Of a stretch of 60,756 bases of DNA, positions 1 through 60,756 are shown one piece after another. The DNA lies in IMG/VR virus record IMGVR_UViG_3300031977_001837, positions 1 through 60,756 of that record; one strand, 5' to 3'. A program made the position numbers and the translations under genes. This DNA comes from a virus (taxonomy: Duplodnaviria > Caudoviricetes). The notes below the pieces were generated by a model. The model was given only the letters and a program-made list of their open reading frames with translations, was not told the origin of the DNA and did no database searches. Positions within the stretch are counted from its first letter, which is position 1, and every line of letters starts with the position of its first letter.

Positions 1-1385
1 GGGTCGCTTGCGTCAGCAATACCGACCTTGATTCTGTTGCTTCCGCCAATCTCGCCTTTAGAATAAAGTGGCGCACCAAGAGGAATTGTTGAACCTTCAT
101 CGTTGCGAACATTGAAATGCACTGTGGACTCAACATCTCTATCGCCACGATACAAATGGCCGTCTTCGTTGTTAAGCCAAATAGTATCTTGGGGATTTGT
201 GCTTTCGGGATTCACAGCCTGCGGCGTAAATACCATACCCGTTGGGTCAATTAAACCACTAACTGTTAATTTACCATTAATATTAAAGTCTGAACCATCC
301 CATGTTAAATTAGAAGAATGACTTAATTTTTGTGAATTATTTCCAAAAAGTATTCTATTAGCGGGAATATAATTTAATCCTGTTCCACCAAATGAAACAT
401 TAAGATTGTAAAGTCCTTTGTAATAATATATTCCGTCTGCAATTGGAGTAAAACCCCATGTTCCTTTTATATTTGGTCTATTTACTAAATGAATAGTTGC
501 GCCATATGAGTCGTTTCCTTTTAATGACGAACCACGATTAATTGTTAAATCATTAAGAGAAACAACAGAACCAAAAGGCAAAAAAGCAAAAGAACCGCTA
601 CCATCTGCTGTTGAATCTAATATCCATTTACGCCAAGTAAAAGTCCATGTTCCCATTGTAGTATTTCCGCTAACTGGTAAAGTCCAACCGGAAGTTGTTG
701 TTTGAAAAGTCCATGTCCCATACCCTCCATCAAAAAAATAATTGCTTGTATTGTTAACTAATGAAAATTGCGCAGAAGTCCCAACAAGGTCTGTTGTTCC
801 TTCTATAATAAAATTCATCAATCTATCATCACTTGATGGAGTAGCAGAAGATGGCTCAACATTGACATCGCCAAACTTCATAGATAATACTTTTACATTA
901 TATTTATTATCTGCTAATGTTGGCGCAATATATTCTGGTCTAAAGCCATTTGTAAATTGTAAATGAGGATATGTGCCAGCATCTAAAGTAATGTAATAAG
1001 AACCATCAAACTTAAAAAGTAAATTATTTCTTGCTGAACTTGTTCTAAACATATCTGTTGTATTTATTTGAACATAAGTTTTGTTAGTATTGTATGCAGG
1101 CGCACCAGAAAATGTAATTGTAGTATTAGTTGTCGAATCAATGCAGTTATCAAGACTTACTGATAAACCAGTTTCTATTTCACAATTTGTATCAAATGTA
1201 ACAATACTTGTATAAGTTGAATCTATTTGTATTATTCCAACAGTAGCAATATCCCAATAACAAGCAAATGCGCTTAAATTATTAAATTGCGCAGTATCAC
1301 CAGTAGCGGGAACTCCTGTGGGTTTCCAATTTGCAGAATTATTTGCATTGCTATTAGAAGTAGCAACCCATTCATAAACAGTCAT
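1..1385 (-). CDS. Tail fibre / virion structural protein, N-terminal part (runs off the left edge; missing from the ORF track)
   Basis: ATG at 1385 (MTVYEWVATSNSNANNSANWKPTGVP...). The segments I translated (start and 1-300) are in the same open frame, ending ...GKLTVSGLIDPTG...NVRNDEGSTIPLGAPLYSKGEIGGSNRIKVGIADASDP. Rich in T/S/G/N and beta-like. Confidence 0.7.
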   Translation of the reverse strand, partial: MTVYEWVATSNSNANNSANWKPTGVPATGDTAQFNNLSAFACYWDIATVGIIQIDSTYTSIVTFDTNCEIETGLSVSLDNCIDSTTNTTITFSGAPAYNTNKTYVQINTTDMFRTSSARNNLLFKFDGSYYITLDAGTYPHLQFTNGFRPEYIAPTLADNKYNVKVLSMKFGDVNVEPSSATPSSDDRLMNFIIEGTTDLVGTSAQFSLVNNTSNYFFDGGYGTWTFQTTTSGWTLPVSGNTTMGTWTFTWRKWILDSTADGSGSFAFLPFGSVVSLNDLTINRGSSLKGNDSYGATIHLVNRPNIKGTWGFTPIADGIYYYKGLYNLNVSFGGTGLNYIPANRILFGNNSQKLSHSSNLTWDGSDFNINGKLTVSGLIDPTGMVFTPQAVNPESTNPQDTIWLNNEDGHLYRGDRDVESTVHFNVRNDEGSTIPLGAPLYSKGEIGGSNRIKVGIADASD

Positions 1386-6712: not shown

Positions 6713-6961
6713 TTAAATTACCATTTGACTACCAGTAATTACTATACTAATAAATCCTATACCTGTTAACATTACTTTTTTAATCAAATCAAAGCCTTCT
6801 TGTAAAACTTTATTCTGAATGCGCAATTCTCCTTCAAGTCCAGCAAGCCTTGCTTCTGCTTTTGATTGCGCTTTTACAATTTGCGCAGAAAGAGTTTTTA
6901 AGTCCTTTACATCTTCTTCAAGACTTTCAACTCTAAACTCTAACACATCGTCAGACATCAC
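6713..6961 (-). CDS. Coiled-coil protein with C-terminal TM helix (XhlA/holin-like architecture)
   Basis: RVESLEEDVKDLK coiled coil followed by a hydrophobic C-terminus. Confidence 0.5.
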   Translation of the reverse strand: MMSDDVLEFRVESLEEDVKDLKTLSAQIVKAQSKAEARLAGLEGELRIQNKVLQEGFDLIKKVMLTGIGFISIVITGSQMVI

Positions 6962-8334
6962 ATTTCACCTTCTCTCGGCAATTCGCCAGTTGGTGTTCTT
7001 GTTCCGCCTTCTTTTCTGGTATCTGCGCCTTCTTCGACAGGAAGCGCAACAACATCAAGGGCTTGATTTAGCGTTAATACGCCTGCATCATACCCTAATG
7101 TGGCTCGACGCATTTTGTCAAGACGAGTTTCTTCATCAACTGGTTCAAACACAAGGTCAGGTAAGTCAGATTTTACATGGTTAATTTTTAACAAATTTAA
7201 GTGCGCAGAAAATAATTCCATTACAGACTGTCGCAAAATGCTTTGTATGCGTCGAATTGCATTGCTTGCCCATAAGTTTGCAGTATAAGATGCCGCAAAA
7301 GTGCTACCTTTCTCTTGACCGGCTGCTGTGCGTGGCACTTGTAAAACTGCTGCAATGTCTGCATTTACATTGTCAAGGAATGATGTTGTGTCGGGTATTG
7401 CGCTTCTTTGGTCTATATGTTGTATCTTTACATAGTCTGGGAAAATTGGCACTTGGTCGCCACGAAGCGACTCCATTGTGTCAATTACTTGATTCATAAT
7501 GTAAAGCAGTCTATCTCTTTGCTCATCGGGGTTTTGTATGTGCTTTACTGCTTCCATATCAATTGTAATAAATTGTTTTGTCATTGCATCTTCAATAGCA
7601 ATTCTGTTGTTAATACTATTATACTTTGCACGAATGGCTTGCTTTAGTGCTGTAAAACGGGATGAACCCCAAATACCATAAGTTATCCTTGCTTCGTTAT
7701 CTGTGAACCAATTACTTCTGTAATCCATGCGTATGTGCAATATTTCGTCTGATGGAAACTCTTGCATTGTTGTTTCTCCTTCACGCAAAAAATACCTTTG
7801 CGGTTCGATAACAGGGTCATTTTCATCAGCAGTTGCAGTTCTATTTCTATCGTCAAGTATTGTAATTTGACCTATCGGTAAGTTTTGCACATCAGTTATA
7901 CCTTCACGGCTTGTTCCTACAAGTTTATTGACATCATTTCCATAAACCATAAGATTTCTCATAGCATTAATAAGAATATCATCAAAATCTATTTTATCAA
8001 TCATTTCTTGTAAAGCATTTCTAATTCGTGCATTTTTTGCGCTGCGCCAATTGATTGTATAATTGTTAGCAGTTAGCGATACTGCACGCACTGCACCATT
8101 AAGTTCGGGGTCAAGTTTAAGCATTTCGTCAAAAAGATAAAAGTCATTATCAAAGTTAGAGTCATCTCTTAACTGATTTGTTTCATTTACAATATCCGAC
8201 AAACCTGCAATCATAGTGAATGGGCTTCTGTGGCCTACATTATATCGTAAGTCACCTTCAAAGGCCATAACTACTTTTGGTTCCTCATTTTTCGATGGAG
8301 ATTTTTTAGAACCAAAAAAGGGAAATCGTGCCAT
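6958..8334 (-). CDS. Portal protein
   Basis: 458 aa with MRNLMVYGN, EILHIR, YGIWGSS, DIAAVLQVP and GVLTLNQA motifs typical of portals; first gene of the head operon. Confidence 0.85.
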   Translation of the reverse strand: MARFPFFGSKKSPSKNEEPKVVMAFEGDLRYNVGHRSPFTMIAGLSDIVNETNQLRDDSNFDNDFYLFDEMLKLDPELNGAVRAVSLTANNYTINWRSAKNARIRNALQEMIDKIDFDDILINAMRNLMVYGNDVNKLVGTSREGITDVQNLPIGQITILDDRNRTATADENDPVIEPQRYFLREGETTMQEFPSDEILHIRMDYRSNWFTDNEARITYGIWGSSRFTALKQAIRAKYNSINNRIAIEDAMTKQFITIDMEAVKHIQNPDEQRDRLLYIMNQVIDTMESLRGDQVPIFPDYVKIQHIDQRSAIPDTTSFLDNVNADIAAVLQVPRTAAGQEKGSTFAASYTANLWASNAIRRIQSILRQSVMELFSAHLNLLKINHVKSDLPDLVFEPVDEETRLDKMRRATLGYDAGVLTLNQALDVVALPVEEGADTRKEGGTRTPTGELPREGEM

Positions 8335-8762: not shown

Positions 8763-9989
8763 ATGAAGTCTGACGAGTATAGGCAGGTAGTAATTGAGCA
8801 AATGGATAACTATGATGGTAATGTTGCTGCATTCGCAAGGCATATGGCCGGCATTATTACAGATATGAACCCAGAAGCACATCGTTGGAGACTACGAATA
8901 CTAAAAGAAGATGAACCAGAAATATTTACAGATATAGAAGTTATTGACTATAATGCGCATATTCCTTTAGAGTTTGAAGGTAGCAAATTAGAATTAGCAA
9001 GACTTATGAACAGAAGGTTTCCAGAAATTTCTTGTGTTGGTTGGGAAAATAGAATTAGACGAGCCTACGAAAGAAATGCTATAACTAAAAAAGAAACTCC
9101 ACACTTTATTGTTGAACACTTGAAAAAAGAGTCCGGTAGTTTAGAAAGTCTTTGGGATGCAGTTGAAAAACAATCTAAAAAGGCTATTTTGGCAACAGAA
9201 GATGCTCGATGGGCTACAATTCATGTAAATGATAGTGATAGATATATTGGTATAGCATTTCAAAGCGACCAACATATCGGCAATCCTTTCTGCGACCATG
9301 AGCGTTTGCGCAAAGATACAGAATTAATTGCTAAAAATCCCGATTGTTATGTTATTCATGCCGGTGACTATATTGATAACTTTGTTATTGACAAACCACG
9401 ACCTGCTATGAAAGCACCAATCCCCCCTTCTATTCAGTGGCAACTTTGCGAACACTATATTAATATGAGTAAAGATTCACTAATGGCTATTGTTGCGGGC
9501 AATCATGACCTTTGGACTGCCGGTATGACAGATTATGACCCACTAAAGAAACTTGCTTCCAGTAATGGAATCTTATATCATCCTTATGAATTAAATATTA
9601 AATTAGTTCACGGCGAAGTAGCATATCATTTATCAATTAGACATAAGCGCAGAGGTAACTCAAATCTTGACCCAAGCCGTGTTGTCAAAAAAATGTGGGA
9701 TGACGGAGAGTGTGATTTTGATATTGGGGTAATAGGACACCACCATACACCTTCTGTTGTGCCATTTACACGACATGCAGTTGAAAGATGGTCTGTAAGA
9801 CCGGGGGCTTATAAAATTGTTGATTCGTTTGGAGAAATGTGTGGTTTCCCAAGAGAAAGACCAACAAGCCCAATAGTAATTCTTTGCTCTAAGACAAGAG
9901 ATATTCAAGCATTTACAGACCTAAGACATGGTTTAAGATTATTAAATACACTTAATGGGAGAGAACCTAATGCCTATATGGATGAGTAA
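8763..9989 (+). CDS. Calcineurin-like metallophosphoesterase with N-terminal extension
   Basis: SDQHIG, GDYID, GNHD and GHHH motifs. Confidence 0.85.
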   Translation: MKSDEYRQVVIEQMDNYDGNVAAFARHMAGIITDMNPEAHRWRLRILKEDEPEIFTDIEVIDYNAHIPLEFEGSKLELARLMNRRFPEISCVGWENRIRRAYERNAITKKETPHFIVEHLKKESGSLESLWDAVEKQSKKAILATEDARWATIHVNDSDRYIGIAFQSDQHIGNPFCDHERLRKDTELIAKNPDCYVIHAGDYIDNFVIDKPRPAMKAPIPPSIQWQLCEHYINMSKDSLMAIVAGNHDLWTAGMTDYDPLKKLASSNGILYHPYELNIKLVHGEVAYHLSIRHKRRGNSNLDPSRVVKKMWDDGECDFDIGVIGHHHTPSVVPFTRHAVERWSVRPGAYKIVDSFGEMCGFPRERPTSPIVILCSKTRDIQAFTDLRHGLRLLNTLNGREPNAYMDE

Positions 9990-10200
9990 CGACAAAGAGT
10001 TGCGATTTGCAGATATGGGCGAAGATTGCGTAGCAGTAAATATGTTTCTTTCAGATGAAGACTTAATACTCGGCGTTATGCTAACAAGAGATGAAATTGA
10101 AAACTTAGTGTATAAGTTAGCAGAATACTGCGGAATCCCGTTTTTTAATAAAGGAGGGATAAATCTAAATGGTTCGCTTAATGACAACCTTTCATCTTGA
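9970..10200 (+). CDS. Hypothetical protein
   Basis: GGAGAG RBS before ATG 9970; overlaps both neighbours. Confidence 0.6.
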   Translation: MPIWMSNDKELRFADMGEDCVAVNMFLSDEDLILGVMLTRDEIENLVYKLAEYCGIPFFNKGGINLNGSLNDNLSS

Positions 10201-11662
10201 GCGTAGTCGCTATGATATACGCCATTTTTATGAATGGCTTGGCTACAAATGGGGCGACCATATAGGTGAATGGTTAGAATTATATGGAAATACCGAAGGT
10301 AAGCAAGTTCATCGTGTTTGTATTATTGCGCCCAGAGACCATAGTAAGTCAACAACTCTTCGTGTAAAAATACTACACATGTTACTTTTTGAAAAGTGGC
10401 GTGGCAAACCTTTTACTATTTGGTTATTTTCTGCAAATAAAGACCTTGCTATGAATCGTCTTGAAGAAATACGCCAAGACTTAAAAAGGCATCCCGAATT
10501 ATCTAAAAAAATAGATACAACAAAAGGTAATAGATTTGAATTGCGCTTAACAAACGGCGCATGGATTAAGGCTACATCAGTTGGTTCTGGTATTCGTGGT
10601 GAGCATCCGGCAGCAATTGCTCTTGATGATATTATTGACGACCAAAATGATATGTCTTATGACACATACCAACAGTGGTTTAGAAAAAAACTAACACCTA
10701 TGCTGTCACCTAAAACTTGTTTATTCTGTGTCGGAACACCAATGTCTATGAATGACCTTTACCATACTGAAATGTTAAACAACGACGCATGGGAAACATG
10801 GCAAAAAGGCGCAATTGTAAATTATGATGAGTGGCGCAATGACCCAGACAATGAAAAACCTGTTTGTCTATGGCCTTCTGAAAGACCTCTTGAGTTTTTA
10901 CTTGAGCAAAAAGAAGCAATTGGAGAGTTGGCTTTTGCGCAAGAATATCTTTGTAAGGTAGTTGACGACGATAGCGCAGTTTTCCCACAAAGCATTACCA
11001 GAAAAAATCTTAGTATGGATTCTATACTGCAAAAAAATAAATTGCATGAAGGCGATTATGTTGTTGGGTTCGACCCTTCTCACGGCATAGGAAAGGACTA
11101 TACGGTAGCAATGGTGCTAAGACAAGACAAAGACGGCAATGTTCACATAGTAAATATGTGGAGGCGCAACGATTTCCCGCCTGCAAAACAAATTGAAATA
11201 ATTGCAGAGTTAGATGATTCATATAAGCATCCTATTTTTGCTTTTGAAAGCGCAGGGTTTCAGTCTTTGTATCAATCACTAATAAATCAACATGGTTTAA
11301 CGCTAAATATGAAAATGAGCAAAGTATCTAACAAAACTCTCAAGCAAGGACTGTTAAATCGGCTTCGTGTGTGGTTTGAGCAAGAAAAAGTCATTATACC
11401 TTATGGAAACGATGAAACAAGGCGTGTTATGAGCATATTACTTGACGAATTAGAGTCACATGTATGGAAAAACGGCGATATAGTTGACAAAGGTAAGCAT
11501 AACGACACTGTAATGGCACTTGCGCACGCCATAGACCAAATAAAAACGGCCACAAACGGCGGTTTAGCAGTCGTTGGAGGCACTTTAGACGCATCACAGT
11601 GGACTACGGGAAAAAAATCTAAAAAAATAACAAGAAATAGGCGTTTTGTGCCGTTTTTTTAG
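10181..11662 (+). CDS. terL: Terminase large subunit
   Basis: Walker A PRDHSKST, Walker B IALDDI, GTP motif, FAQEY, nuclease GFDPS and HNDTVMA. Confidence 0.93.
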   Translation: MTTFHLERSRYDIRHFYEWLGYKWGDHIGEWLELYGNTEGKQVHRVCIIAPRDHSKSTTLRVKILHMLLFEKWRGKPFTIWLFSANKDLAMNRLEEIRQDLKRHPELSKKIDTTKGNRFELRLTNGAWIKATSVGSGIRGEHPAAIALDDIIDDQNDMSYDTYQQWFRKKLTPMLSPKTCLFCVGTPMSMNDLYHTEMLNNDAWETWQKGAIVNYDEWRNDPDNEKPVCLWPSERPLEFLLEQKEAIGELAFAQEYLCKVVDDDSAVFPQSITRKNLSMDSILQKNKLHEGDYVVGFDPSHGIGKDYTVAMVLRQDKDGNVHIVNMWRRNDFPPAKQIEIIAELDDSYKHPIFAFESAGFQSLYQSLINQHGLTLNMKMSKVSNKTLKQGLLNRLRVWFEQEKVIIPYGNDETRRVMSILLDELESHVWKNGDIVDKGKHNDTVMALAHAIDQIKTATNGGLAVVGGTLDASQWTTGKKSKKITRNRRFVPFF

Positions 11663-11750
11663 TTTATAAACGCAATTTGGAAAAAATATGGGTAATTTTT
11701 TGAGGTGGTTGGCGTTGCGTGCGCCGTCAGTGCGCATAGGTTTTGGCGCA

Positions 11751-12983
11751 AAAAAACGCATGACTGCGAGCCTGTTATTACTTTTCAGCGCAATTTTATT
11801 AATTTTGACAAAATCGGTCTTTTCTGAACATTATTGATACTATCTATTCGATGCACTGCAAGCCATTTTGCGCAAATGGAGGTCGTCGGTTGAAAATAGG
11901 CCGTTGTAAAATCGAATGACGGCGAGCCTGTTTTGAGTCATATCTCTGCTGATTTGTTCGATTGTTGGCAAAATTGCGCCGTTTGAAACCGATGGACTGA
12001 GAGCCTACCGTCAAACAATAGGCTTCCAGTGATGCGTTTTTGATAATTCAGTGGTTGATTTTCAAATTGACTTCATTGATTGAAAACCGATAGACTGCGA
12101 CCCTCCCGACTTCCATAATTACCGTATATTTTCATAAATCAGCACCCTTTTTTCTCGATTCCGGTAATTTTTGCGCTGTTATGGTAATTTTACGGAAATG
12201 AGCAAAATGAGCAAAATTGAGTAATATCCACTATTGAAAAACGACGCACTGAAAAATTGACAGTTGAAAAAATCAAAAAAATTGCTCAAAATTTCAGCCT
12301 CGCAGTCTTCATATCTCGCCTTCTTGCATCATCATTTTGCGCCGTGATTTTCAAAACCGTTGCACTGCGTTTTTCAGAGAGACCGAAATCCAAAGTCGAA
12401 ATCCGGTAATTCAAACTCTAAACGATAGACTGAGAAGCCGACAAAATCTCAAACCGTTATACTGCTCTGCATTCGATGGACTGCGAGACCGACGGCCCCT
12501 ATCGGCCTGTTTTTCTCGGACATCATTGGCTTGCAGTGTCCCATTTAGTGAAATCCGGCGAAATTGCCAAAATCGGCGCAATCGGTGACGGAAACCGGAA
12601 AAATGGAAAATTGCTCTTAGTCCTAACAGGCTTGCAGTGTTGCGTTTTCATTTTCTAATCGTGGCACTGAGAGCCTGCTCTGCTCAGAGAATCTCAACAG
12701 GCTTGCAGTCCATCGAATAGCCCGAAATGCGCCGAATTGAGCCGACTCCTAAACGATAGACTGCGAGGCTGTTTTTTCCGGCGCAATTTCAAAACCGTGA
12801 CACTGCGAGGCTGTCAAGATTCTGGAAAAAAACCGTTGCACTGCATCTTGAAAACGATAGACTGAGAGCCTGCTGAAGATGCGCCATTTCGCTGAAACCG
12901 TGATACTGCGAGGCTTATGGCTCTCTATACAACGGTTTTACTCAAAAAAGTGGTGTAAAAAGTAAATCGAGGGACTGCAAGGA
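11751..12983. repeat. Dispersed array of about 22-bp repeats, consensus AAA(A/C)CG-NNNN-ACTG(C/A)(G/A)AG(C/G)CTGTT
   Basis: 19 perfect CG-N4-ACTG cores. On +: 11757, 11849, 11990, 12088, 12242, 12358, 12423, 12455, 12474, 12660, 12754, 12796, 12834, 12855, 12899, 12968. On -: 12027, 12635, 12706. Three near matches near 11913, 12303, 12534. Confidence 0.9.
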
Positions 12984-13044
12984 AGTTTATATGTAGTTTA
13001 TCCACCCCTGCATCCAATTTTTGCGCCACTTTCAACCGAAATCG

Positions 13045-13054
13045 GTTATAACCT
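13045..13054 (+). promoter_or_regulatory. Archaeal TATA-box promoter (GGTTATAA) of the first early operon
   Basis: GG(T)TTATA-like boxes recur upstream of + genes (about 16658, 19046, 21824, 24245, 25305, 30866, 33657, 36142, 40429, 41745, 42971). Confidence 0.6.
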
Positions 13055-13085
13055 GAAGGAATAAGGAGTAAAGCGAGGTATAGTA

Positions 13086-15188
13086 ATGTTGCAGAACATC
13101 GTAACCAAAATTATGATTGTATTGCTCGCAGTTGGCTTATTTGCGCCAGTTGTAGCAATCGCAATCAATCAGCATGAAGAACGACCGACCCCAGTAATGG
13201 AGACCAGTGAGCCGATGGCAGAACTCCCAGAGTTCAAACCACCAATGAGCAGACATGCGTTTAAGCGAGCAGTTCACCGTTTAGAATTAGCAAGCAAGCG
13301 CAAAAATCTCAAGGGCGCACTTCTTAGAAGGGTGCTAAATGGCACGCAGTCTAACGATTCAACCGAGGAAAATGACACGGTTGAAATCAAAACAGGCTTG
13401 CAGTGTGCCGATTGTGGATGCCTTGAAGAACATGGATATGCAATAGATGAAGAACTAAATCCGGCGCAGTGTGCCGATTGTTACTATTATCCAACCGTTG
13501 AAGAGGTTGAAATTACGACGAGGAAACACGCAAAAAGCCGAGCAGTTGACTGTTTTGCATGTGGGGTTTCAATCCATCAAGGAGAAACTAAGCACATGAT
13601 GAAATACGAAAATATGCACACCAAAAAGGCACACTGCGACCAATGCGCTGATGAAATCATAGGTCTAAAGGCTGATGAAATCATTACCAAACAGGCCCGC
13701 AGTCAATCGTTAAGCGCATTAATTGCGCCGATTTTCCTTGCCCTCGTAGTTTCCATATTTGCGCCTAAACTGGCTTTCAGTGTGCCATTCTTAGCAGTTG
13801 GAAAAATGCACTTGAGCGCAGAATTAGAAGCATGTAAAGCGGAAGGCTACAAAATACGCAGTCATTCAAAGTCAAATCCTGCTAAGTGCATTTCCTGCAA
13901 ATGCGAGATAACCAAAGGTGAATTGAAAGCAATGCTTCCTTACGCCGGATATACTCAAAATAAGGCACATTGCAGAGAATGCGCCCATATTACATGGGTC
14001 AAGATTTCAGCAAATCCAACCCCAAAAGTTGAGCCAAAAACCGACCCCGTTCCAGAGCCAAAACCGGAACCGGCAACCCAACCAAATGAGCCGACTGCGC
14101 CAAAGGTCGCAGAGAAAATTAAGACACAAATCAAAGGAGATAAGGGGTCTCAATTGGTTGAATTAATTGCTCAATTGGGTGGAGTTGATGAAGCGGAAGT
14201 CCGTCGAATTGTCAATGAGGAAACGGCGCAAATTCAAGAGAAGTTTGCCGACCAAATCAACGACCAGTTAAGCAAAATCAGCAAGCCGACACTTCTTGAA
14301 ATCAAGCCTATGAAGGGCGAGAAAATCAAGATTGAAGGAGTCCAACACCACAAGATGACTCAATTGCTGTTCTATATCATGAAGACACGCAATGAGAATA
14401 ATCTGTATCTATGGGGTGACGCCGGAACCGGAAAAACTCGCATTTGTGTGGATTTATTCGGACTATTGAAAGCCGGTGGATGGTTCAAGGAAATGGGCTT
14501 GAAGAAGGCCACAGTTGAGAAGAATGTGTTCATTCTCAGTTGTAACAAAGACATCCAATCTCAAGAGTTGTTAGGCCGTGAAAGTCCGAGATTCTTTGAT
14601 GATGGAAGCGGAAGGCCTGCCGGCGAATGGGACTTCATTCTCGGCGCACTATTGCCCGTTTTCCGTGATGGTGGAATAATTTGTCTTGATGAGATTGACC
14701 GTCTTCATGAATCAACTTTGAGCGCATTGAATGCAATCTTAGCGAATGGGTTCGTATATACTCCAAAAGGCGAGAAAATTGTGCGCCATCCGGCTTGCGT
14801 TATTGTTGGCACTGCTAACACAAAGGGCAACGGTGGAAGCGGAAAATACTCGGCCACAAGACAGCAAGACGGCGCAACTCTTGACCGTTTCACAGGTCGG
14901 AAAATCCACATTGATTATGACCCTGCAATTGAAGATTCAATCGCCGGAAGTGCTGAACTGGCGCAAAAGTTCAGAGACATGAGAAACGCATTTGAGGCAC
15001 ATGGACTTGATGAAGCAATTATCTCATACCGTTCTATAATCGTTGCACGCAATGACATTGAAGCCGGTATATCTCAAGAATATGCGCTGTATAATATCGC
15101 TTCCCAATGGGGAGAGGAAAACGCATTCAAGGCCGGATTTACCGAAGTCCCTACCTTTGACTTTTCAAGTGCGTGGGGTGGCGCATAA
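13086..15188 (+). CDS. MoxR/CbbQ/CobS-like AAA+ ATPase with TM segments and two zinc-finger modules
   Basis: Walker A GDAGTGKT, Walker B CLDEID, TANT sensor, ATLDRF Arg finger; N-terminal and internal hydrophobic helices; two CxxC...HCxxC modules. Confidence 0.85.
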   Translation: MLQNIVTKIMIVLLAVGLFAPVVAIAINQHEERPTPVMETSEPMAELPEFKPPMSRHAFKRAVHRLELASKRKNLKGALLRRVLNGTQSNDSTEENDTVEIKTGLQCADCGCLEEHGYAIDEELNPAQCADCYYYPTVEEVEITTRKHAKSRAVDCFACGVSIHQGETKHMMKYENMHTKKAHCDQCADEIIGLKADEIITKQARSQSLSALIAPIFLALVVSIFAPKLAFSVPFLAVGKMHLSAELEACKAEGYKIRSHSKSNPAKCISCKCEITKGELKAMLPYAGYTQNKAHCRECAHITWVKISANPTPKVEPKTDPVPEPKPEPATQPNEPTAPKVAEKIKTQIKGDKGSQLVELIAQLGGVDEAEVRRIVNEETAQIQEKFADQINDQLSKISKPTLLEIKPMKGEKIKIEGVQHHKMTQLLFYIMKTRNENNLYLWGDAGTGKTRICVDLFGLLKAGGWFKEMGLKKATVEKNVFILSCNKDIQSQELLGRESPRFFDDGSGRPAGEWDFILGALLPVFRDGGIICLDEIDRLHESTLSALNAILANGFVYTPKGEKIVRHPACVIVGTANTKGNGGSGKYSATRQQDGATLDRFTGRKIHIDYDPAIEDSIAGSAELAQKFRDMRNAFEAHGLDEAIISYRSIIVARNDIEAGISQEYALYNIASQWGEENAFKAGFTEVPTFDFSSAWGGA

Positions 15189-15256
15189 TCGGGACACTGC
15201 GCTAATGAAACAGTTTGAAAATATGCGCAAATTCTGAAATAAAACGAGGTGAAAAA

Positions 15257-16273
15257 ATGTTCAATCCAATCTATGAATATGTCTGGAACGCAGACACAGA
15301 AACTATGGAGAAGGGCAAGAAAGTTGAGGTCTTCCCTAACAAAGTAATGCTTGAGGAAAATCGCAACCCAAAACCGATGAACGGCGTTCAATTCCTTGAG
15401 GTTGAAGGGTGGTCTAAGTTCAACTTCTTTGAAAGCCCACTTCACTTGAACAAATTTTTGCGCAATGAGGTGATTAAGAAGAACCCTCAGAACGGTGAAA
15501 AGAAGATACGCCACGCTGAATGGTTAGGTGTCCCAAAGGAATTGAGAAAGACCTGCGGAACATATCAAGACCTATACGACCAGTTGATTGTTCACCCATC
15601 AAAAGCACCAGAAAAAATCAAGCAGGCTGTTGTTAATGCACTGCCTAATGCAATACGCAATATTTTGGTTGAATCCGAGCGATGGAGTGACATCAAAGGC
15701 GATTTGAACCTTGATAGAATCTTTGCAGGAAAGCGCAAATTTATGAGAGAACAAATCATTCAAAACGAGCCTACCAAAGTTATTGGTATCGGCGTTCAAA
15801 TGAATGCACTGAGCCACATTAACGCAGAGGTTTTGAGCATTAGGGGAGTCGTTGCCAGTATTGCGGTTGAGTGCCTTGAAAAATTAGGCCACTCGGTTGA
15901 ACTGTTTGGATATACTCATTCAAGTGGGACTTACGGAAACGGCGCAAGCACCAATACATTTGTCTGCAAAATCAAGAAGGCAGGCGAGAAAATGGCGACC
16001 AGTGCGCTGATGAACCTAACCTCTTCATGGTGTTTTAGAACTGCGGTTTTCGCAGTCAATAACCACGCAAGCAGGAACAGCAGAAAAGCAGAGGCAAGAG
16101 GTCAAGGCGGTTCATTGAAGATGAACGACACAAGCGCAAAATACCTTGAGCAACTCATACCGTCAATCACCAATTTCGCTATACTGCGCTATGTCCCAGA
16201 GTCTAACGGCTTCATCGGCGAGATTGAAAAGGCAGTGGATGCGCTTCTTGATGTTCTTGAGCCATACATTTGA
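15257..16273 (+). CDS. VWA-like (CobT-like) partner of the AAA+ ATPase
   Basis: Follows the AAA gene; GDLNLDRIFAG then a degenerate VWA core (VIGIGVQMNAL, LEKLGHSVELF, IKKAGE, FRTAVFA). GAGGTGA RBS before ATG 15257. Confidence 0.65.
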   Translation: MFNPIYEYVWNADTETMEKGKKVEVFPNKVMLEENRNPKPMNGVQFLEVEGWSKFNFFESPLHLNKFLRNEVIKKNPQNGEKKIRHAEWLGVPKELRKTCGTYQDLYDQLIVHPSKAPEKIKQAVVNALPNAIRNILVESERWSDIKGDLNLDRIFAGKRKFMREQIIQNEPTKVIGIGVQMNALSHINAEVLSIRGVVASIAVECLEKLGHSVELFGYTHSSGTYGNGASTNTFVCKIKKAGEKMATSALMNLTSSWCFRTAVFAVNNHASRNSRKAEARGQGGSLKMNDTSAKYLEQLIPSITNFAILRYVPESNGFIGEIEKAVDALLDVLEPYI

Positions 16274-16383
16274 GCAAAACGATAGACTGCGAGCAAGTTG
16301 GAGGTGAAAATAAACTAAAAAAAGGGCATAACGATTTGATGTTGAACCGTGTCAAATCGGCCCACTGAAAGGCATAACGGTTC

Positions 16384-16399
16384 ATTTTTTTATTTTTTT
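16384..16399 (+). terminator. Possible T-rich archaeal terminator after the AAA/VWA operon
   Basis: Two consecutive T runs about 110 bp after the VWA stop codon. Confidence 0.35.
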
Positions 16400-16688
16400 G
16401 CGCTAAATTTTTCTTCATTGGCGCAATTTTTCAAAATCGAATCAGCGCAAGCCTTGAAAATTATCCGAGCAGATTTCCCAGACCAAAAACCCAAACCGAA
16501 AAAAAAGTGCGCTCTGAAAAAAAATTGCTCGGCGCAGAAAAAATCGGTCTCGGTGTGCCTATATGCGCATGAAGTTAATACAGAATTATTTTGATATTTT
16601 ACGGAGTCGAAACCAGTCCTTCAAAATCACCATTTCAACGAGTCAATCAAGTAGGGGGTTTATATCCCTCTATATGATAGGGGAGTGC

Positions 16689-27996: not shown

Positions 27997-28612
27997 ATGG
28001 TTAATCGAACAGAGGCTTGCGCAAGAAGAAGATGCTACGGCTATCGAAGTTTTGAAGTGGATTTTAGAATCCCCCGAATGTCCTCTGTGCGCACATAGAG
28101 ATAGAAGAGATTTAGAAATACAAGTTTTCAACGGCGGAATCACTACTGCTTATCTTGAATCTAAATACAATTGGGAGATAGGAATAGTTGAAGAACACAT
28201 GACTGCGCACATGGACTATGACCCAGAAGAGGCGCAAGATGTCGAAAAGGCTCGCAGTGAAGCGATTACTACTCTTGATATGGCGGAAGATGTATTCTCC
28301 CGTATCACGACATGGCTTGATGAATGGGAAGCGCAGAAATCTAAAGACGGTATTGACGCAGAATGGCTATCCACTGCTACCCGTCTTGTTGCTCAAGCGA
28401 ATACCAACATTAAGTTGATTGGCACATTGAAGAAAGAAATCGGTGTTGATTCGCAGATGCTACTTGCGCATCAGCAGGTCAACGGTGTGATGGGTATTCT
28501 TGTTGATGTGTTGCGCACTGAACCGAAGTTGTTGAACCAAATTGAAATGCGTATAGGCGCACTGAAAGCCCCGACAATTATTGAAGATGCAGAATGGGAG
28601 TTGGTTGACTAA
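27986..28612 (+). CDS. Zinc-finger/HTH plus coiled-coil protein
   Basis: CPLCAH...HMTAH followed by a helical region. Confidence 0.65.
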   Translation: MKSKWLIEQRLAQEEDATAIEVLKWILESPECPLCAHRDRRDLEIQVFNGGITTAYLESKYNWEIGIVEEHMTAHMDYDPEEAQDVEKARSEAITTLDMAEDVFSRITTWLDEWEAQKSKDGIDAEWLSTATRLVAQANTNIKLIGTLKKEIGVDSQMLLAHQQVNGVMGILVDVLRTEPKLLNQIEMRIGALKAPTIIEDAEWELVD

Positions 28613-37412: not shown

Positions 37413-37736
37413 ATGAATTACGGAATAACTTTTGATTGTAAAGAATGTGGCGCAGAATTGGTAACGGTAATCAAGATAAAGAATGGAATCGAAGCATCTT
37501 CAAAGGCTATATGCCTTGAGTGTGGCGAACCTCACCATATCTTGCTTGAAATTAGCCATCCTAAATCTTCCTCTCAAACATACAGAAAGGAATCATGGCT
37601 AAAAGACCAGTATGAAACCAATGGTCGAAGTATGGCAAGTATAGCAAAGGAATGCGCAGTTTCTCCGATGACTATTCACAAGTGGTTGAAAACTCACGGA
37701 ATAAAAACAAGACCGACAGGACAGCGCAAGAAGTGA
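37413..37736 (+). CDS. Zinc ribbon plus HTH protein
   Basis: CKEC/CLEC and YRKESWLKDQY...SMASIAKECAVSPMTIHKWLKTHGI HTH. Confidence 0.7.
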   Translation: MNYGITFDCKECGAELVTVIKIKNGIEASSKAICLECGEPHHILLEISHPKSSSQTYRKESWLKDQYETNGRSMASIAKECAVSPMTIHKWLKTHGIKTRPTGQRKK

Positions 37737-59509: not shown

Positions 59510-60756
59510 TCACGGTATTATTCCGCCCACCAAAGGCGCAAGAGCATTTGCTAATCTTTCTATTGCTTCTTGAATATTAGCAGGGGGAGGAGCCGCCCAT
59601 GAAGGGGCTGAAATGGTTGGTGTAAAAATATCAGTTTCAGCCTGTCCTGCTTGTAAATAAGCAACATCAGCAAGAGTCGAAGCCGCCGTTAAATCTCCGT
59701 TAGCATCAGCAACTAATACTGCGTTTGTCACACCTTGTCTAAATGTTCCGGCTACTCTTGCTGAACCTTGAACCACTAAGCCACCTGTTGTAGCAATTCC
59801 TCCACCGGAATTAGCATCAACAAACCCTATTTCTTCTATGTCTAAAGTTTTCTTAACTGTCATACTTGTAGCAAAATCAACATAAGTGCGACTTGTATCA
59901 CCAAGAAGTGCATCATGACCCGCAGTATCAGAATCAGCGAGCATAGTTGAAAGTAAAGTCCAACCGTCACCTGTTCCTAAGTTAAATATCATGTGCAAAC
60001 TAAGGTCGTTTAGACTATTAGAAATGTAAATCTGCAACGCCGCCCCATCATATGTGCTACCTTCTTTAATTCTAAACTCAGTAAAAGGGATTTCATTACC
60101 ATACCCCGATACCGCAAAACAAGTAAGGGAATTAGAACCATCAACACCAAATTGATGACTTGCTTCTATTCGTGCGGTTCTATGTCTTGATGACCGTTTA
60201 TCTTGAATGTAAAATTGTGACATAGCCCTTTGGCTTGAAGAACCACCTAAAGCATCCCATCCTTTTACTACTGCAAAAGTCCACCATCCGGTAGCGTAAT
60301 CTATGGCTAAGTGTTCAGTTTGTATTATATCTGTATTAACTGTATAACTACCGCTACCTGTTCTTTCCATTAGACCATTAGCAGAAAAATCAGAATCCAT
60401 AATTGCGCCTGCCGAAGCAACATTAGTAGCATCGGTCACATCTGCCCCATCTTCAACATTAATATGACTTCTAAGAGTAGGTGCATCCACGCCAAGAGCG
60501 ATAGTGCCACTTGTTGTAATAGGAGAACCGGAATCAACTTCAATACCATCTGAACCCGATATTGCTACGCTTGTGACTGTTCCACTACCACCGCCACCGC
60601 CTCCACTTGCGGCGATAGTAAGGTCGCCACCCGCCCCACCGTCTGTAAGTGTAATGTTTGTTCCGGCAACAAGCCTTCGGGCTTGTGGGTGTGTGGATTC
60701 TGTGTTCACCATGAGAAATGAGCAGTTTGGACTATCATTCGTTCTGCCAATAGCGG
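59510..60756 (-). CDS. Tail fibre C-terminal part (runs off the right edge)
   Basis: Frame is open upstream of the ORF-track ATG (AIGRTNDSPNCSFLM...). Fibre motifs LVAGTNITLT, GGGGSGTVTSVAI, GSPITTSGTI, INVEDGADVTDATNV. Confidence 0.75.
   Translation of the reverse strand, partial: AIGRTNDSPNCSFLMVNTESTHPQARRLVAGTNITLTDGGAGGDLTIAASGGGGGGSGTVTSVAISGSDGIEVDSGSPITTSGTIALGVDAPTLRSHINVEDGADVTDATNVASAGAIMDSDFSANGLMERTGSGSYTVNTDIIQTEHLAIDYATGWWTFAVVKGWDALGGSSSQRAMSQFYIQDKRSSRHRTARIEASHQFGVDGSNSLTCFAVSGYGNEIPFTEFRIKEGSTYDGAALQIYISNSLNDLSLHMIFNLGTGDGWTLLSTMLADSDTAGHDALLGDTSRTYVDFATSMTVKKTLDIEEIGFVDANSGGGIATTGGLVVQGSARVAGTFRQGVTNAVLVADANGDLTAASTLADVAYLQAGQAETDIFTPTISAPSWAAPPPANIQEAIERLANALAPLVGGIIP

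What the first reader, a model, noticed from the sequence alone, without database searches (positions are those of the whole stretch)
11751..12983. Dense array of a bipartite CG-N4-ACTG motif in the non-coding region after terminase
Seen: 19 perfect CG-NNNN-ACTG cores (16 on +, 3 on -) and 3 near matches in about 1.25 kb. They are usually embedded as AAA(A/C)CG-N4-ACTG(C/A)(G/A)AG(C/G)CTGTT, with a variable N4 and irregular spacing (about 20-150 bp). A rough base-composition estimate gives about one such core per 3-4 kb. Fixed half-sites around a free spacer suggest a protein-binding site, not a tandem duplication. Inference: iterons for a viral initiator or terminase, an injection-control signal, or a decoy/loading field for a host DNA-binding or restriction-modification enzyme (the bipartite form resembles Type I recognition sites).
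Basis: partly seen in the sequence, partly recalled or inferred. Interest (0 to 1): 0.85.

Follow-up and report, generated by a model that had tools for sequence, protein, structure and literature searches.

The report
Viral array of a host-type DNA motif
A marine archaeal virus packs about 21 copies of a 24-base DNA signal into a 1.4-kb gene-free gap, and the same signal sits singly beside tRNA and rRNA genes of its likely host, so the array probably binds, captures or recruits a host DNA-binding protein.

Summary
The window has 19 perfect CG-N4-ACTG cores (16+, 3-) at 11757-12977, against about 0.5 expected. They belong to a ~24-bp asymmetric element, (C)TAAACG-N4-ACTGCGAGCCTGTT. There are 21 copies in the non-coding gap between TerL and a Zn-ribbon/AAA_5 ATPase gene.

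All relatives with TerL at least 80% identical keep the array, although the DNA between copies has diverged beyond alignment. More distant relatives carry 1-4 copies, again next to TerL.

The main new result is that the element also occurs in Poseidoniales chromosomes. There it is single-copy: abutting tRNA 3' ends, ~300 nt upstream of a tRNA-Val operon, and upstream of the 16S rRNA gene in 2 of 3 genomes checked.

The element has no RNA fold, no helical phasing and no fixed orientation.

Best reading (0.42): a dense platform of binding sites for a sequence-specific, probably host-encoded, DNA-binding protein linked to stable-RNA genes, used as a decoy or for recruitment.

Rivals are an RNA-level or terminator-type element, origin iterons, a packaging site, and selfish repeats. 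The Type I restriction-site idea is not supported. No binding protein was identified, and nothing here shows binding.

The parts
10169..11662 (+). Terminase large subunit gene (TerL), left border of the gap
   Evidence: PHROG phrog_38 at E=1.8e-42. Pfam Terminase_6C and TerL_ATPase match weakly. A T7 run sits at the stop codon.
11663..13085 (.). Non-coding gap that holds the array
   Evidence: No ORF above 83 aa. No Rfam match in it (the one E=0.67 match lies at 13442-13488, outside it). No tRNA. Mildly AT-rich at 12100-12350, 31-37% GC.
11663..11670 (+). TATA-box-like TTTATAAA right after the TerL stop
   Evidence: Aligned as (T)TTATAA in 9 of the 13 relatives, variant in L031, L008, L014 and L013; none of these columns is invariant. 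Its role as a promoter is my inference.
11691..11714 (+). Conserved block (TTTTTTG.GGTG.TTGGCG), function unknown
   Evidence: Mostly invariant columns across 13 relatives, including the 76% TerL clade.
11752..11776 (+). motif copy 1
   Evidence: PWM 30.7 bits
11844..11868 (+). motif copy 2
   Evidence: 26.2 bits
11908..11932 (+). motif copy 3 (core ACGG, a near match)
   Evidence: 28.0 bits
11985..12009 (+). motif copy 4
   Evidence: 30.7 bits
12017..12041 (-). motif copy 5
   Evidence: 23.5 bits
12083..12107 (+). motif copy 6
   Evidence: 29.1 bits
12237..12261 (+). motif copy 7 (3' half degenerate)
   Evidence: 19.0 bits
12353..12377 (+). motif copy 8 (3' half degenerate)
   Evidence: 17.3 bits
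12418..12442 (+). motif copy 9
   Evidence: 24.7 bits
12450..12474 (+). motif copy 10 (3' half degenerate)
   Evidence: 16.0 bits
12469..12493 (+). motif copy 11
   Evidence: 23.4 bits
12524..12548 (-). motif copy 12 (near match)
   Evidence: 19.1 bits
12625..12649 (-). motif copy 13
   Evidence: 30.9 bits
12655..12679 (+). motif copy 14
   Evidence: 29.8 bits
12696..12720 (-). motif copy 15
   Evidence: 30.6 bits
12749..12773 (+). motif copy 16
   Evidence: 33.3 bits
12791..12815 (+). motif copy 17
   Evidence: 32.9 bits
12829..12853 (+). motif copy 18 (3' half degenerate)
   Evidence: 12.5 bits
12850..12874 (+). motif copy 19
   Evidence: 31.9 bits
12894..12918 (+). motif copy 20
   Evidence: 26.8 bits
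12963..12987 (+). motif copy 21
   Evidence: 23.5 bits
13086..15188 (+). 700-aa protein: N-terminal hydrophobic stretch (putative membrane helix, by eye), several CxxC (Zn-ribbon-like) pairs, C-terminal AAA_5/CobS-like ATPase; right border of the gap
   Evidence: Pfam AAA_5 at 1.4e-13. The MCM P-loop match scores 23.2 bits, below its cut-off of 23.3. PHROG phrog_249 at 8.5e-35. The N-terminus is conserved as protein in relatives.
13337..13361 (-). outlying motif copy inside the ATPase ORF, antisense
   Evidence: 16.9 bits
13391..13415 (-). outlying motif copy inside the ATPase ORF, antisense
   Evidence: 24.6 bits; antisense copies are also found in this ORF in relatives
13690..13714 (-). outlying motif copy inside the ATPase ORF, antisense
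   Evidence: 18.6 bits
15215..16273 (+). DUF7192 protein gene
   Evidence: Pfam DUF7192 at 8.2e-13
16275..16299 (+). single motif copy 2 nt after the DUF7192 stop, in a second short non-coding stretch
   Evidence: 29.1 bits. Relatives have 1-3 copies 4.2-5.5 kb downstream of TerL. Sequence.
28245..28269 (-). isolated motif copy inside a + strand ORF, antisense
   Evidence: 27.8 bits

Best explanation
The gap between TerL and the ATPase gene is a dense field of about 21 binding sites for one sequence-specific DNA-binding protein. Three to five more sites spill into the next gene.

The site is a ~24-bp asymmetric bipartite element, (C)TAAACG-N4-ACTGCGAGCCTGTT. Poseidoniales chromosomes use the same element as single copies beside stable-RNA genes. 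So the protein is most likely host-encoded, or shared by host and virus.

The viral field would load many copies of that protein. Either it draws the protein away from its few chromosomal sites (a DNA decoy, multiplied by viral genome copy number), or it brings the protein onto viral DNA at the border between the packaging genes and the long rightward gene block. There the protein could act as an enhancer, an insulator or roadblock, or a helper for replication or packaging.

What is shown: the array exists, it is maintained while its surroundings diverge, and the element also occurs in host genomes.

What is inferred: that a protein binds it, that the protein is the host's, and which effect follows.
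For: 1. Enrichment and anatomy. 19 cores against 0.54 expected. The unit is 24 bp and N4 carries little information.

2. Maintained in relatives. All 12 loci whose TerL is at least 80% identical carry the cluster: 16-20 sites of at least 15 bits in the first ~1.5 kb after TerL in the 8 that are long enough (L001, L004, L006-L009, L011, L031), and 3-10 in the four truncated ones (L002, L003, L005, L010). The DNA between copies is only 10-70% identical per 100 alignment columns, while TerL is 80-91% identical as protein. Nearly all of the 8-mers most frequent across six arrays are pieces of the motif; the rest contain GCGCC. Five relatives' arrays give the same consensus from 92 cores.

3. Old element, recent expansion. 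The 76-77% TerL clade (5 loci) has one copy 168 nt after TerL, and 4 of the 5 have another in the portal/Mre11-like divergent gap. Relatives at ~54% TerL identity (L034, L043, L055, L088, L145) have 2-7 copies of at least 18 bits, again just after TerL or in the TerL-portal gap.

4. Present in hosts. A scan of 185,579 species' genomes with a 17-base-specified pattern gave 50 hits. Ten are from marine Thermoplasmatota or Poseidoniales-type MAGs. Eight of those ten lie within 350 nt of a tRNA: three abut tRNA-Glu(TTC), and five lie 280-343 nt upstream of a small-gene/tRNA-Val(GAC) unit. Further sites abut tRNA-Gly(TCC), tRNA-Gly(GCC) and tRNA-Asn. One sits between SecY and 16S rRNA in 2 of 3 genomes, 44-46 nt upstream of a shared ATATACAGGT box. 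The neighbouring host genes are housekeeping genes. In 121 sampled genomes of the order, the strict core occurs 99 times in 53 genomes, against 29 for the reversed control.

5. DNA-level, orientation-tolerant recognition. Eight copies tested have no RNA structure (z from -1.0 to +1.4). The first copy is flipped in place between close relatives with the same N4. One relative's array is mostly on the minus strand (L068, 6+/9-). Sites occur on both strands inside the ATPase ORF.
Against: - No binding protein was identified. Pfam scans of 50 window ORFs found only one weak HTH match, at 37413-37736.
- No experiment or read data show binding, titration or any effect on transcription.
- The strong + strand bias (17+/4- here; 71+/21- in five relatives) would fit a polar or RNA-level function at least as well.
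- Host sites that abut tRNA 3' ends suggest a role at transcript ends and not at promoters.
- Only 53 of 121 sampled host genomes have the strict core, and several host matches look like chance hits in coding DNA.
- That this virus infects Poseidoniales is inferred, not shown.
- The host loci L201-L213 were 13 of 41 pattern hits that I picked for the CGAGCC/CGAGGC form, so the counts of contexts are not an unbiased sample.
Confidence: 0.42

Rival explanations
1. The element works at the transcript level or as a polar stop: a sequence-specific terminator, roadblock or RNA 3'-end/processing signal that hosts place at the ends of stable-RNA genes. The viral array would be a multi-copy stop or insulator after TerL. 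If it is transcribed from the TATA-like box at 11663, it could instead be an RNA sponge for the factor that reads the signal.
For: - Host copies start at or within about 11 nt of the 3' end of four different tRNA genes, in sense orientation.
- In the window, one copy lies 2 nt after the DUF7192 stop, and the array follows the TerL stop.
- The motif often runs into a T tract.
- Copies are mostly in sense with the flanking genes (17+/4-). Strong copies inside real ORFs are mostly antisense, about 17 against 7 after I dropped a chance ORF inside the L008 array.
- A TATA-like box, shared by most close relatives, lies just upstream of the array.
Against: - Seven strong sense copies sit inside real ORFs, four of them deep in the ATPase ORF.
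- The rRNA and tRNA-Val sites point away from the stable-RNA gene.
- The first copy flips between relatives, and the L068 array is mostly on the minus strand.
- There is no RNA structure.
- No sequence-specific terminator of this kind is known in archaea (recalled, not searched).
Confidence: 0.22
2. The array is the viral origin of replication (or its control region): iterons bound by a virus-encoded initiator, possibly helped by a host factor.
For: - Many ~24-bp repeats lie in the largest non-coding gap, at the head of the long rightward block that ends with RFC-like, PolB and nuclease genes.
- A mildly AT-rich stretch at 12100-12350 lies between copy groups.
- Plus-strand copies are followed by minus-strand copies, a convergent layout seen here and in relatives.
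Against: - No initiator, Orc1/Cdc6 or MCM gene is adjacent. The ATPase is AAA_5/CobS-like.
- Spacing has no helical phase.
- The AT-rich stretch is weak (31-37% GC against a genome mean near 41%).
- GC skew turns near 8 kb and 44 kb, where gene direction turns, and not at the array.
- Relatives with one or two copies would need another origin design.
- Host copies at tRNA and rRNA genes are not explained.
Confidence: 0.15
3. The array is the packaging recognition region (pac/cos-like), where terminase, perhaps with a host bending protein, assembles.
For: The element keeps its place next to TerL in relatives down to ~54% TerL identity, whatever gene follows. No small terminase subunit was recognised in the Pfam/PHROG scans.
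Against: - Twenty-one sites over 1.3 kb is far more than known pac or cos regions have (recalled).
- Copies also lie 4.6 kb and 16.6 kb away.
- Contig ends of the window and of relatives do not fall in the array.
- Host chromosomal copies are unexplained.
Confidence: 0.08
4. The copies are selfish or neutral repeats (MITE-like, or ends of a tRNA-targeting integrative element) that spread by recombination and have no function for the virus.
For: - Copy number and order change quickly between relatives, and one copy is inverted in place.
- In ~54% relatives, pairs of copies flank a 400-aa ORF of unknown family.
- Host copies next to tRNA 3' ends recall integration sites.
Against: - The unit is only ~24 bp, without terminal inverted repeats or target duplications.
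- The pairs around the 400-aa ORF face outwards in L055 and inwards in L088.
- No integrase or transposase family was found.
- Host copies sit at matching positions in genomes of 37-58% GC, among housekeeping genes.
- The array is kept in every close relative.
Confidence: 0.08

Closest known systems
Iteron fields of plasmids and phages (P1 oriR/incA, lambda ori, R6K) - recalled
   Same: Many direct copies of a ~20-bp protein-binding site in a non-coding stretch. Extra copies can titrate the binder.
   Different: Iterons are regularly spaced and in helical phase, number about 4-14, lie beside or inside the initiator gene, and are bound by the element's own protein. Here the spacing is 19-154 bp without phase, no initiator gene lies nearby, and the site is shared with the host chromosome.
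Epstein-Barr virus oriP family of repeats (about 20 EBNA1 sites) - recalled
   Same: About 20 binding sites in under 1.5 kb of a viral genome, acting as a loading platform with several roles (enhancer, fork barrier, maintenance).
   Different: The family of repeats is a regular tandem of 30-bp units with palindromic sites for a virus-encoded protein. Here the units are asymmetric, irregularly spaced, and separated by unrelated DNA.
Sal-box terminators of mouse rDNA bound by TTF-I (Reb1/Nsi1 in yeast) - recalled
   Same: An asymmetric ~18-bp site repeated about ten times at irregular spacing and in one orientation after a gene, with a single copy just upstream of the rRNA promoter. Here one host copy lies upstream of the 16S gene, about 45 nt before a shared ATATACAGGT box that I take to be its promoter, and the viral array follows a gene.
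   Different: That system is eukaryotic and belongs to RNA polymerase I. Neither termination nor a barrier was tested here, and sense copies inside ORFs argue against a strict polar stop.
Tus-Ter / RTP-Ter replication fork traps - recalled
   Same: A ~23-bp asymmetric site in oppositely oriented groups. Here + copies are followed by - copies.
   Different: Ter sites are few and spread over hundreds of kilobases. No Tus- or RTP-like gene was recognised, and the direction of replication is unknown here.
Titration loci such as E. coli datA for DnaA - recalled
   Same: A cluster of sites whose job is to soak up a DNA-binding protein.
   Different: datA is the cell's own locus and has few sites. 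A virus-borne decoy for a host factor would be a different use of the principle.
Type I / IIB restriction-modification recognition sites
   Same: A bipartite form with a non-specific spacer.
   Different: Those sites specify 6-8 bases around N5-N8 (recalled). Here about 18 positions are constrained over 24 bp and the spacer is N4. The host keeps the site at conserved places beside stable-RNA genes.

Membership tests
Iteron-type replication origin | Several direct repeats of 17-25 bp | tested here: met
   21 copies of a ~24-bp unit
Iteron-type replication origin | Regular spacing or helical phasing of the repeats | tested here: not met
   Spacing is 19-154 bp, and the remainders modulo 10.5 are scattered
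Iteron-type replication origin | Adjacent initiator (Rep, Orc1/Cdc6, MCM-type) gene | tested here: not met
   The neighbours are TerL and an AAA_5/CobS-like ATPase. The MCM P-loop match is below its cut-off (23.2 against 23.3 bits)
Iteron-type replication origin | AT-rich unwinding element next to the repeats | tested here: inconclusive
   12100-12350 has 31-37% GC against about 41% for the genome, which is only a mild dip
Iteron-type replication origin | Replication starts there | not testable with these tools
   Needs marker-frequency or origin mapping
Type I restriction-modification target | Two short specific half-sites (3-5 bases each) around N5-N8, with nothing conserved outside | tested here: not met
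   The spacer is N4 and conservation extends over ~24 bp
CRISPR array | Identical repeats at a constant period with unique spacers of constant length | tested here: not met
   Irregular spacing, degenerate copies and both orientations. Tandem Repeats Finder reports only two short runs there (periods 9 and 10, 2.4 copies each), none with the motif's unit
pac/cos packaging site | Lies beside the terminase genes | tested here: met
   Directly downstream of TerL, here and in relatives
pac/cos packaging site | Genome ends or packaging series start there | not tested
   All runs available were contigs, which cannot show ends. Contig ends do not fall in the array
Structured non-coding RNA repeat | Stable or conserved secondary structure of the unit | tested here: not met
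   8 copies folded: z from -1.0 to +1.4, with no common fold. No Rfam match in the gap (the only match, E=0.67, lies at 13442-13488)
Polar protein roadblock (TTF-I Sal box, Tus-Ter type) | Asymmetric site of ~18-23 bp in oriented groups | tested here: met
   17+/4- in the gap, followed by minus-strand copies
Polar protein roadblock (TTF-I Sal box, Tus-Ter type) | The blocking orientation is excluded from inside transcription units | tested here: inconclusive
   Strong sites in real ORFs are about 17 antisense against 7 sense
Cluster of binding sites for a host transcription or chromatin factor (decoy or recruitment field) | The same site occurs at functional, conserved places in the host genome | tested here: met
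   Sites at tRNA-Glu, tRNA-Gly, tRNA-Asn, tRNA-Val and 16S rRNA loci in several Poseidoniales-type genomes. 99 matches against 29 control matches in 121 genomes
Cluster of binding sites for a host transcription or chromatin factor (decoy or recruitment field) | A protein binds the site | not testable with these tools
   Needs EMSA, pull-down or DAP-seq

The most novel reading that the evidence does not exclude
Poseidoniales mark their rRNA and tRNA genes with a so far undescribed 24-bp cis-element read by a dedicated protein: a regulator of stable-RNA synthesis, or a sequence-specific terminator or insulator. One clade of their tailed viruses has multiplied that element about twenty-fold into a DNA sponge. 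Once the viral genome replicates, the sponge strips the factor from the host chromosome or takes over its function. This would be host takeover by decoy DNA and not by a protein.
Probability: 0.2. Interest if true: 0.85.

Novelty: new variant of a known kind. Interest (0 to 1): 0.72.

Why it matters
Poseidoniales (Marine Group II archaea) are among the most abundant ocean microbes. None is cultured, and almost nothing is known about how they or their viruses control genes.

A 24-bp element shared between a widespread virus and the stable-RNA genes of its probable host provides three things:
- a concrete, testable handle on a host regulatory or termination factor;
- sequence-based support for the virus-host link;
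- a possible example of a virus using an array of host binding sites as a decoy or recruiting platform.

The stretch 9000-16600 is held near-whole in 19 DNA runs of 8 studies.

If the element proves to be a sequence-specific terminator or insulator, it would be a new kind of archaeal transcription signal.

Tried and rejected
Rejected readings
- Structured RNA or a known RNA family: the only Rfam match between 11000 and 13600 (E=0.67, 19.9 bits against a gathering score of 45) lies outside the gap, at 13442-13488, and the copies have no fold.
- Tandem duplication or CRISPR: Tandem Repeats Finder finds no array, and the DNA between copies is unrelated.
- A decayed tRNA gene cluster: no tRNA in the window or in 25 viral loci.
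- Provirus junctions in hosts: the flanking host genes are housekeeping genes, with no integrase.
- IS-like cassette around the 400-aa Zn-ribbon ORF in ~54% relatives: the flanking copies face outwards in L055 and inwards in L088, there is no Pfam or PHROG family, and its only relatives are hypothetical proteins without family or useful name, from metagenome sources.
- A second repeated word (TTTTGCGCC / GGCGCAAAA): it reflects a genome-wide 4.4-fold excess of GCGC and is not special to the array.
- A small conserved ORF at the start of the gap: the frame holds a stop (TAA) in the L004 row of alignment A2.

Searches with no useful result
- Deposited phages: no close relative. The best TerL matches are 23-24% identical.
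- Literature: the two magrovirus papers I searched by 'find' (PMC5434244, PMC11706807; passages only) mention no such repeats. A full-text search for the 10-base core strings listed 15 of 105 papers, and none of those 15 titles concerns archaea or their viruses; they look like primer matches (search listing only). Supplements were not seen and might list genome features.

RNA evidence
- One oligo-dT RNA library (X20) holds 8 short contigs at depth 2-3. They lie on 10918-11569, 12705-12860, 12931-13081, 15721-15871, 16121-16290 and 16406-16556.
- The tool warns that this does not show transcription, and I draw no conclusion from it.
- In the three DNA runs laid (X6, X13, X16) the array has no indels or joints. 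Its few base differences (11952-11969, 12075) lie between copies. These amount to about two events, too few to test.

Tools
- Structure prediction, fold search, complex prediction, the protein-atlas search and the RNA-model tools were not used.
Full report
WHAT IS THERE

The window is a whole 60,756-bp virus record.
- Structural genes run leftward at both ends: portal 6958-8334, tail tube, tape measure.
- A long rightward block runs from 8763 to 43707. It holds an Mre11-like phosphoesterase, TerL (10169-11662), the gap, a 700-aa Zn-ribbon/AAA_5 ATPase (13086-15188), DUF7192, a dNMP kinase, an RFC-like ATPase, PolB, a PD-(D/E)XK nuclease and an ERCC4 nuclease.
- The replication genes and the TATA-like box fit an archaeal tailed virus.
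- The gap 11663-13085 has no ORF above 83 aa, no tRNA and no Rfam match.

CHECK OF THE OBSERVATION

- The rest of the window predicts 0.54 in that interval (Poisson 4e-23).
- Markov models of order 1-3 trained on the region itself give at most 7 in 2000 simulations.
- The whole window has 45, against 15 +/- 4 in dinucleotide shuffles.

A count matrix from 21 copies shows a ~24-bp asymmetric unit, (A)AA(A/C/T)CG-nnRS-ACTG-C(G/A)AG(C/G)CTGTT.
- The fixed positions carry 1.5-2.3 bits and N4 carries 0.24-0.88 bits.
- Spacing is 19-154 bp, without helical phase.
- Scanning with the matrix finds 21 copies in the gap (17+, 4-).
- It also finds outliers: 13337-, 13391- and 13690- inside the ATPase ORF; 16275+ two bases after the DUF7192 stop; and 28245- inside a + ORF.

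RELATIVES

A TerL search gave 31 viral loci.
- All 12 loci with TerL at least 80% identical have the same cluster right after TerL. The 8 that are long enough have 16-20 sites of at least 15 bits in the first ~1.5 kb after TerL, mostly on +. A further array-bearing contig, L083, has 25 sites of at least 18 bits.
- The DNA between copies is barely alignable, 10-70% identical per 100 columns.
- Nearly all of the 8-mers most frequent across six arrays are motif pieces; the rest contain GCGCC.
- Five relatives give 92 cores (71+, 21-) with the same flanks and 21 different N4.
- The first copy sits at the same place in all, but is on + in four loci and on - in seven, in two of them (L001, L003) with an identical 22-base core and the same N4.
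- One relative's array is mostly on the minus strand (L068, 6+/9-).
- The 76-77% TerL clade keeps a 1.1-kb gap, but with only one copy (+168, -) plus one in the portal/Mre11-like divergent gap. The 72-73% clade has none, and the 56-59% clade has none next to TerL.
- A 14-mer scan of viral contigs followed by a matrix scan found the element in more distant viruses (TerL ~54%) as 2-7 copies. These again lie after TerL or between TerL and portal, often flanking a 400-aa Zn-ribbon ORF of unknown family.

So the element is old in this virus group, and the twenty-fold array is a clade-specific expansion that selection keeps.

HOSTS

One scan of 185,579 species' genomes with AAACG-N4-ACTGCGAGCCTG gave 50 hits (my estimate of the number expected by chance is about 70).
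- Ten come from marine Thermoplasmatota or Poseidoniales-type MAGs, judged by record title. Four of their genomes fall in one order sample.
- Three of the ten abut the 3' end of tRNA-Glu(TTC).
- Five lie 280-343 nt upstream of a small-gene/tRNA-Val(GAC) unit and point away from it.
- Further copies abut tRNA-Gly(TCC), tRNA-Gly(GCC) and tRNA-Asn(GTT).
- In 2 of 3 genomes checked, a copy lies between SecY and the 16S rRNA gene. It sits 44-46 nt upstream of a shared ATATACAGGT box and a shared leader. That this box is the TATA box is my inference.
- The flanking genes are housekeeping genes: amidohydrolase, GNAT, glycosyltransferase, SecY, an aminoacyl-tRNA synthetase.
- Of 28 host sites of at least 18 bits in the 52 loci I scanned, 10 lie within 400 nt of a tRNA and 4 abut one. 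The loci were partly hand-picked: 13 of the 41 hits.
- In 121 sampled genomes of the order, the strict 12-base-specified core occurs 99 times in 53 genomes, against 29 for the reversed control.

The element is therefore a host cis-element too. It occurs in a few copies per genome and is enriched at stable-RNA genes.

HOW IT MOST LIKELY WORKS

The following features fit duplex DNA read by a sequence-specific protein with two recognition parts:
- no RNA fold;
- two fixed half-sites around a semi-free N4;
- tolerance of both orientations;
- spill-over of copies into the neighbouring ORF on both strands;
- persistence while the DNA between copies turns over.

Because hosts keep the site at matching positions across 37-58% GC, the protein is probably the host's.

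A viral genome with about 25 sites, multiplied by its copy number, would far outnumber the one to six host sites. So the array would sequester the factor or concentrate it on viral DNA. I put this reading at 0.42.

I cannot tell sequestration from recruitment, and I found no candidate binder. The only hint is a weak HTH match at 37413-37736.

RIVALS

- Terminator, roadblock or RNA-end signal (0.22). It is favoured by the tight abutment to tRNA 3' ends, the copy 2 nt after a stop codon, the T tracts, the + bias and the antisense excess inside ORFs (about 17 against 7). It is weakened by sense copies deep inside the ATPase ORF and by host copies that point away from the rRNA and tRNA-Val units.
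- Origin iterons (0.15). They fit the position and the convergent layout. But no initiator lies nearby, the copies have no phasing, and the AT dip is only mild.
- Packaging site (0.08). It fits the constant TerL linkage, but not the number and spread of sites.
- Selfish repeats (0.08). They fit the turnover, but not the conservation.
- Type I restriction target. It fails on spacer length and on the extent of conservation.

OTHER DATA

- The stretch 9000-16600 is held near-whole in 19 DNA runs of 8 studies, five of them flagged as possible sources.
- In the three runs laid, the array is intact, and its few differences lie between copies.
- RNA evidence is limited to 8 tiny low-depth contigs in one oligo-dT library, which proves nothing.
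- I found no description of this element in the papers searched.

VERDICT

This is a real, strongly non-random, evolutionarily maintained array of a 24-bp element shared by a virus clade and Poseidoniales chromosomes.
- As a kind of thing it is known: a viral field of protein-binding sites.
- It is an unusual variant, being a host-type site with irregular spacing and a link to stable-RNA genes.
- The mechanism is still open.

Noticed in passing
whole window; also L001, L006, L011, L031, L014, L024, L025, L055, L088, L063, L145, L083: Six palindromic tetranucleotides are entirely absent from the 60.7-kb genome: GATC, CTAG, GTAC, AGCT and ACGT (about 221 expected each) and CGCG (104 expected). 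GCGC is 4.4-fold over-represented (453 against 104). GATC and AGCT are absent from, and ACGT absent or all but absent from (at most one copy each of GATC and ACGT), all 12 relatives' loci tested. CTAG, GTAC, CGCG and, in L011, CCGG and GGCC are avoided in some lineages only. This looks like an extreme and shifting signature of restriction avoidance.
   Followed up: partly
window 13086-14350 (N-terminal ~420 aa of the ATPase ORF): The AAA_5/CobS-like ATPase carries a long N-terminal extension with a hydrophobic stretch that looks like a membrane helix and several CxxC pairs. The extension is conserved as protein in close relatives, yet it holds 3-5 copies of the array motif, mostly antisense. 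One copy overlaps the codons for a CxxC pair. Either coding sequence is bent to carry binding sites, or the extension grew out of array DNA.
   Followed up: partly
window 11663-11750; alignment A2: Right after the TerL stop there is a TTTATAAA box shared by most close relatives, then a largely invariant block (TTTTTTG.GGTG.TTGGCG), then a TTTTGGC box. The block and the TTTTGGC box are also kept in the 76% TerL clade, which lacks the array. This may be a promoter plus the start of a transcript, or another protein site.
   Followed up: no
L055:12031-13227 (-), L088:11131-12387 (-), and relatives in L034, L043, L044, L089, L118, L101, L090, L092: A ~400-aa protein with one CxxC...CxxC ribbon and no Pfam or PHROG family sits just after TerL in viruses at ~54% TerL identity, bracketed by copies of the motif. 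Its only relatives in the 5.8-billion-protein search are hypothetical proteins without family or useful name, from metagenome sources.
   Followed up: partly
L168, L178, L183, L186, L192 (host loci near tRNA-Val): About 40-50 nt downstream of the host motif lies a conserved inverted repeat (GATAA-n6-TTATC followed by GCC). In L168 a similar box recurs about 1 kb further on, as if a segment had been inserted between two copies. No Rfam family matches.
   Followed up: no
L224, L228, L229, L233, L234, L242 (host loci): A GC-rich variant, GGTAGCG-n8-CGACCCACTGCGAGCCC, recurs in several host genomes, twice at contig ends. In L233 it is paired with an inverted copy 27 nt upstream. It may be a separate structured element that shares the core.
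   Followed up: no
window 1-1385 and 59510-60756: ORFs on the minus strand run off both ends of the record, as if one gene were cut by the linearisation point. The record is probably a circularly permuted or circular assembly. The frames do not join exactly (four leftover bases).
   Followed up: no
window 16274-16562: A second short non-coding stretch after DUF7192 repeats the make-up of the array in miniature: one strong and one weak motif copy, plus GCGC-rich words.
   Followed up: partly
L014:7513-8625: The 76% TerL clade keeps a 1.1-kb non-coding gap after TerL, but with other short repeats (ATTTTTGG-n-TTTTTTGAAT, TTTTTCTAAGATTTT) in place of the array.
   Followed up: no
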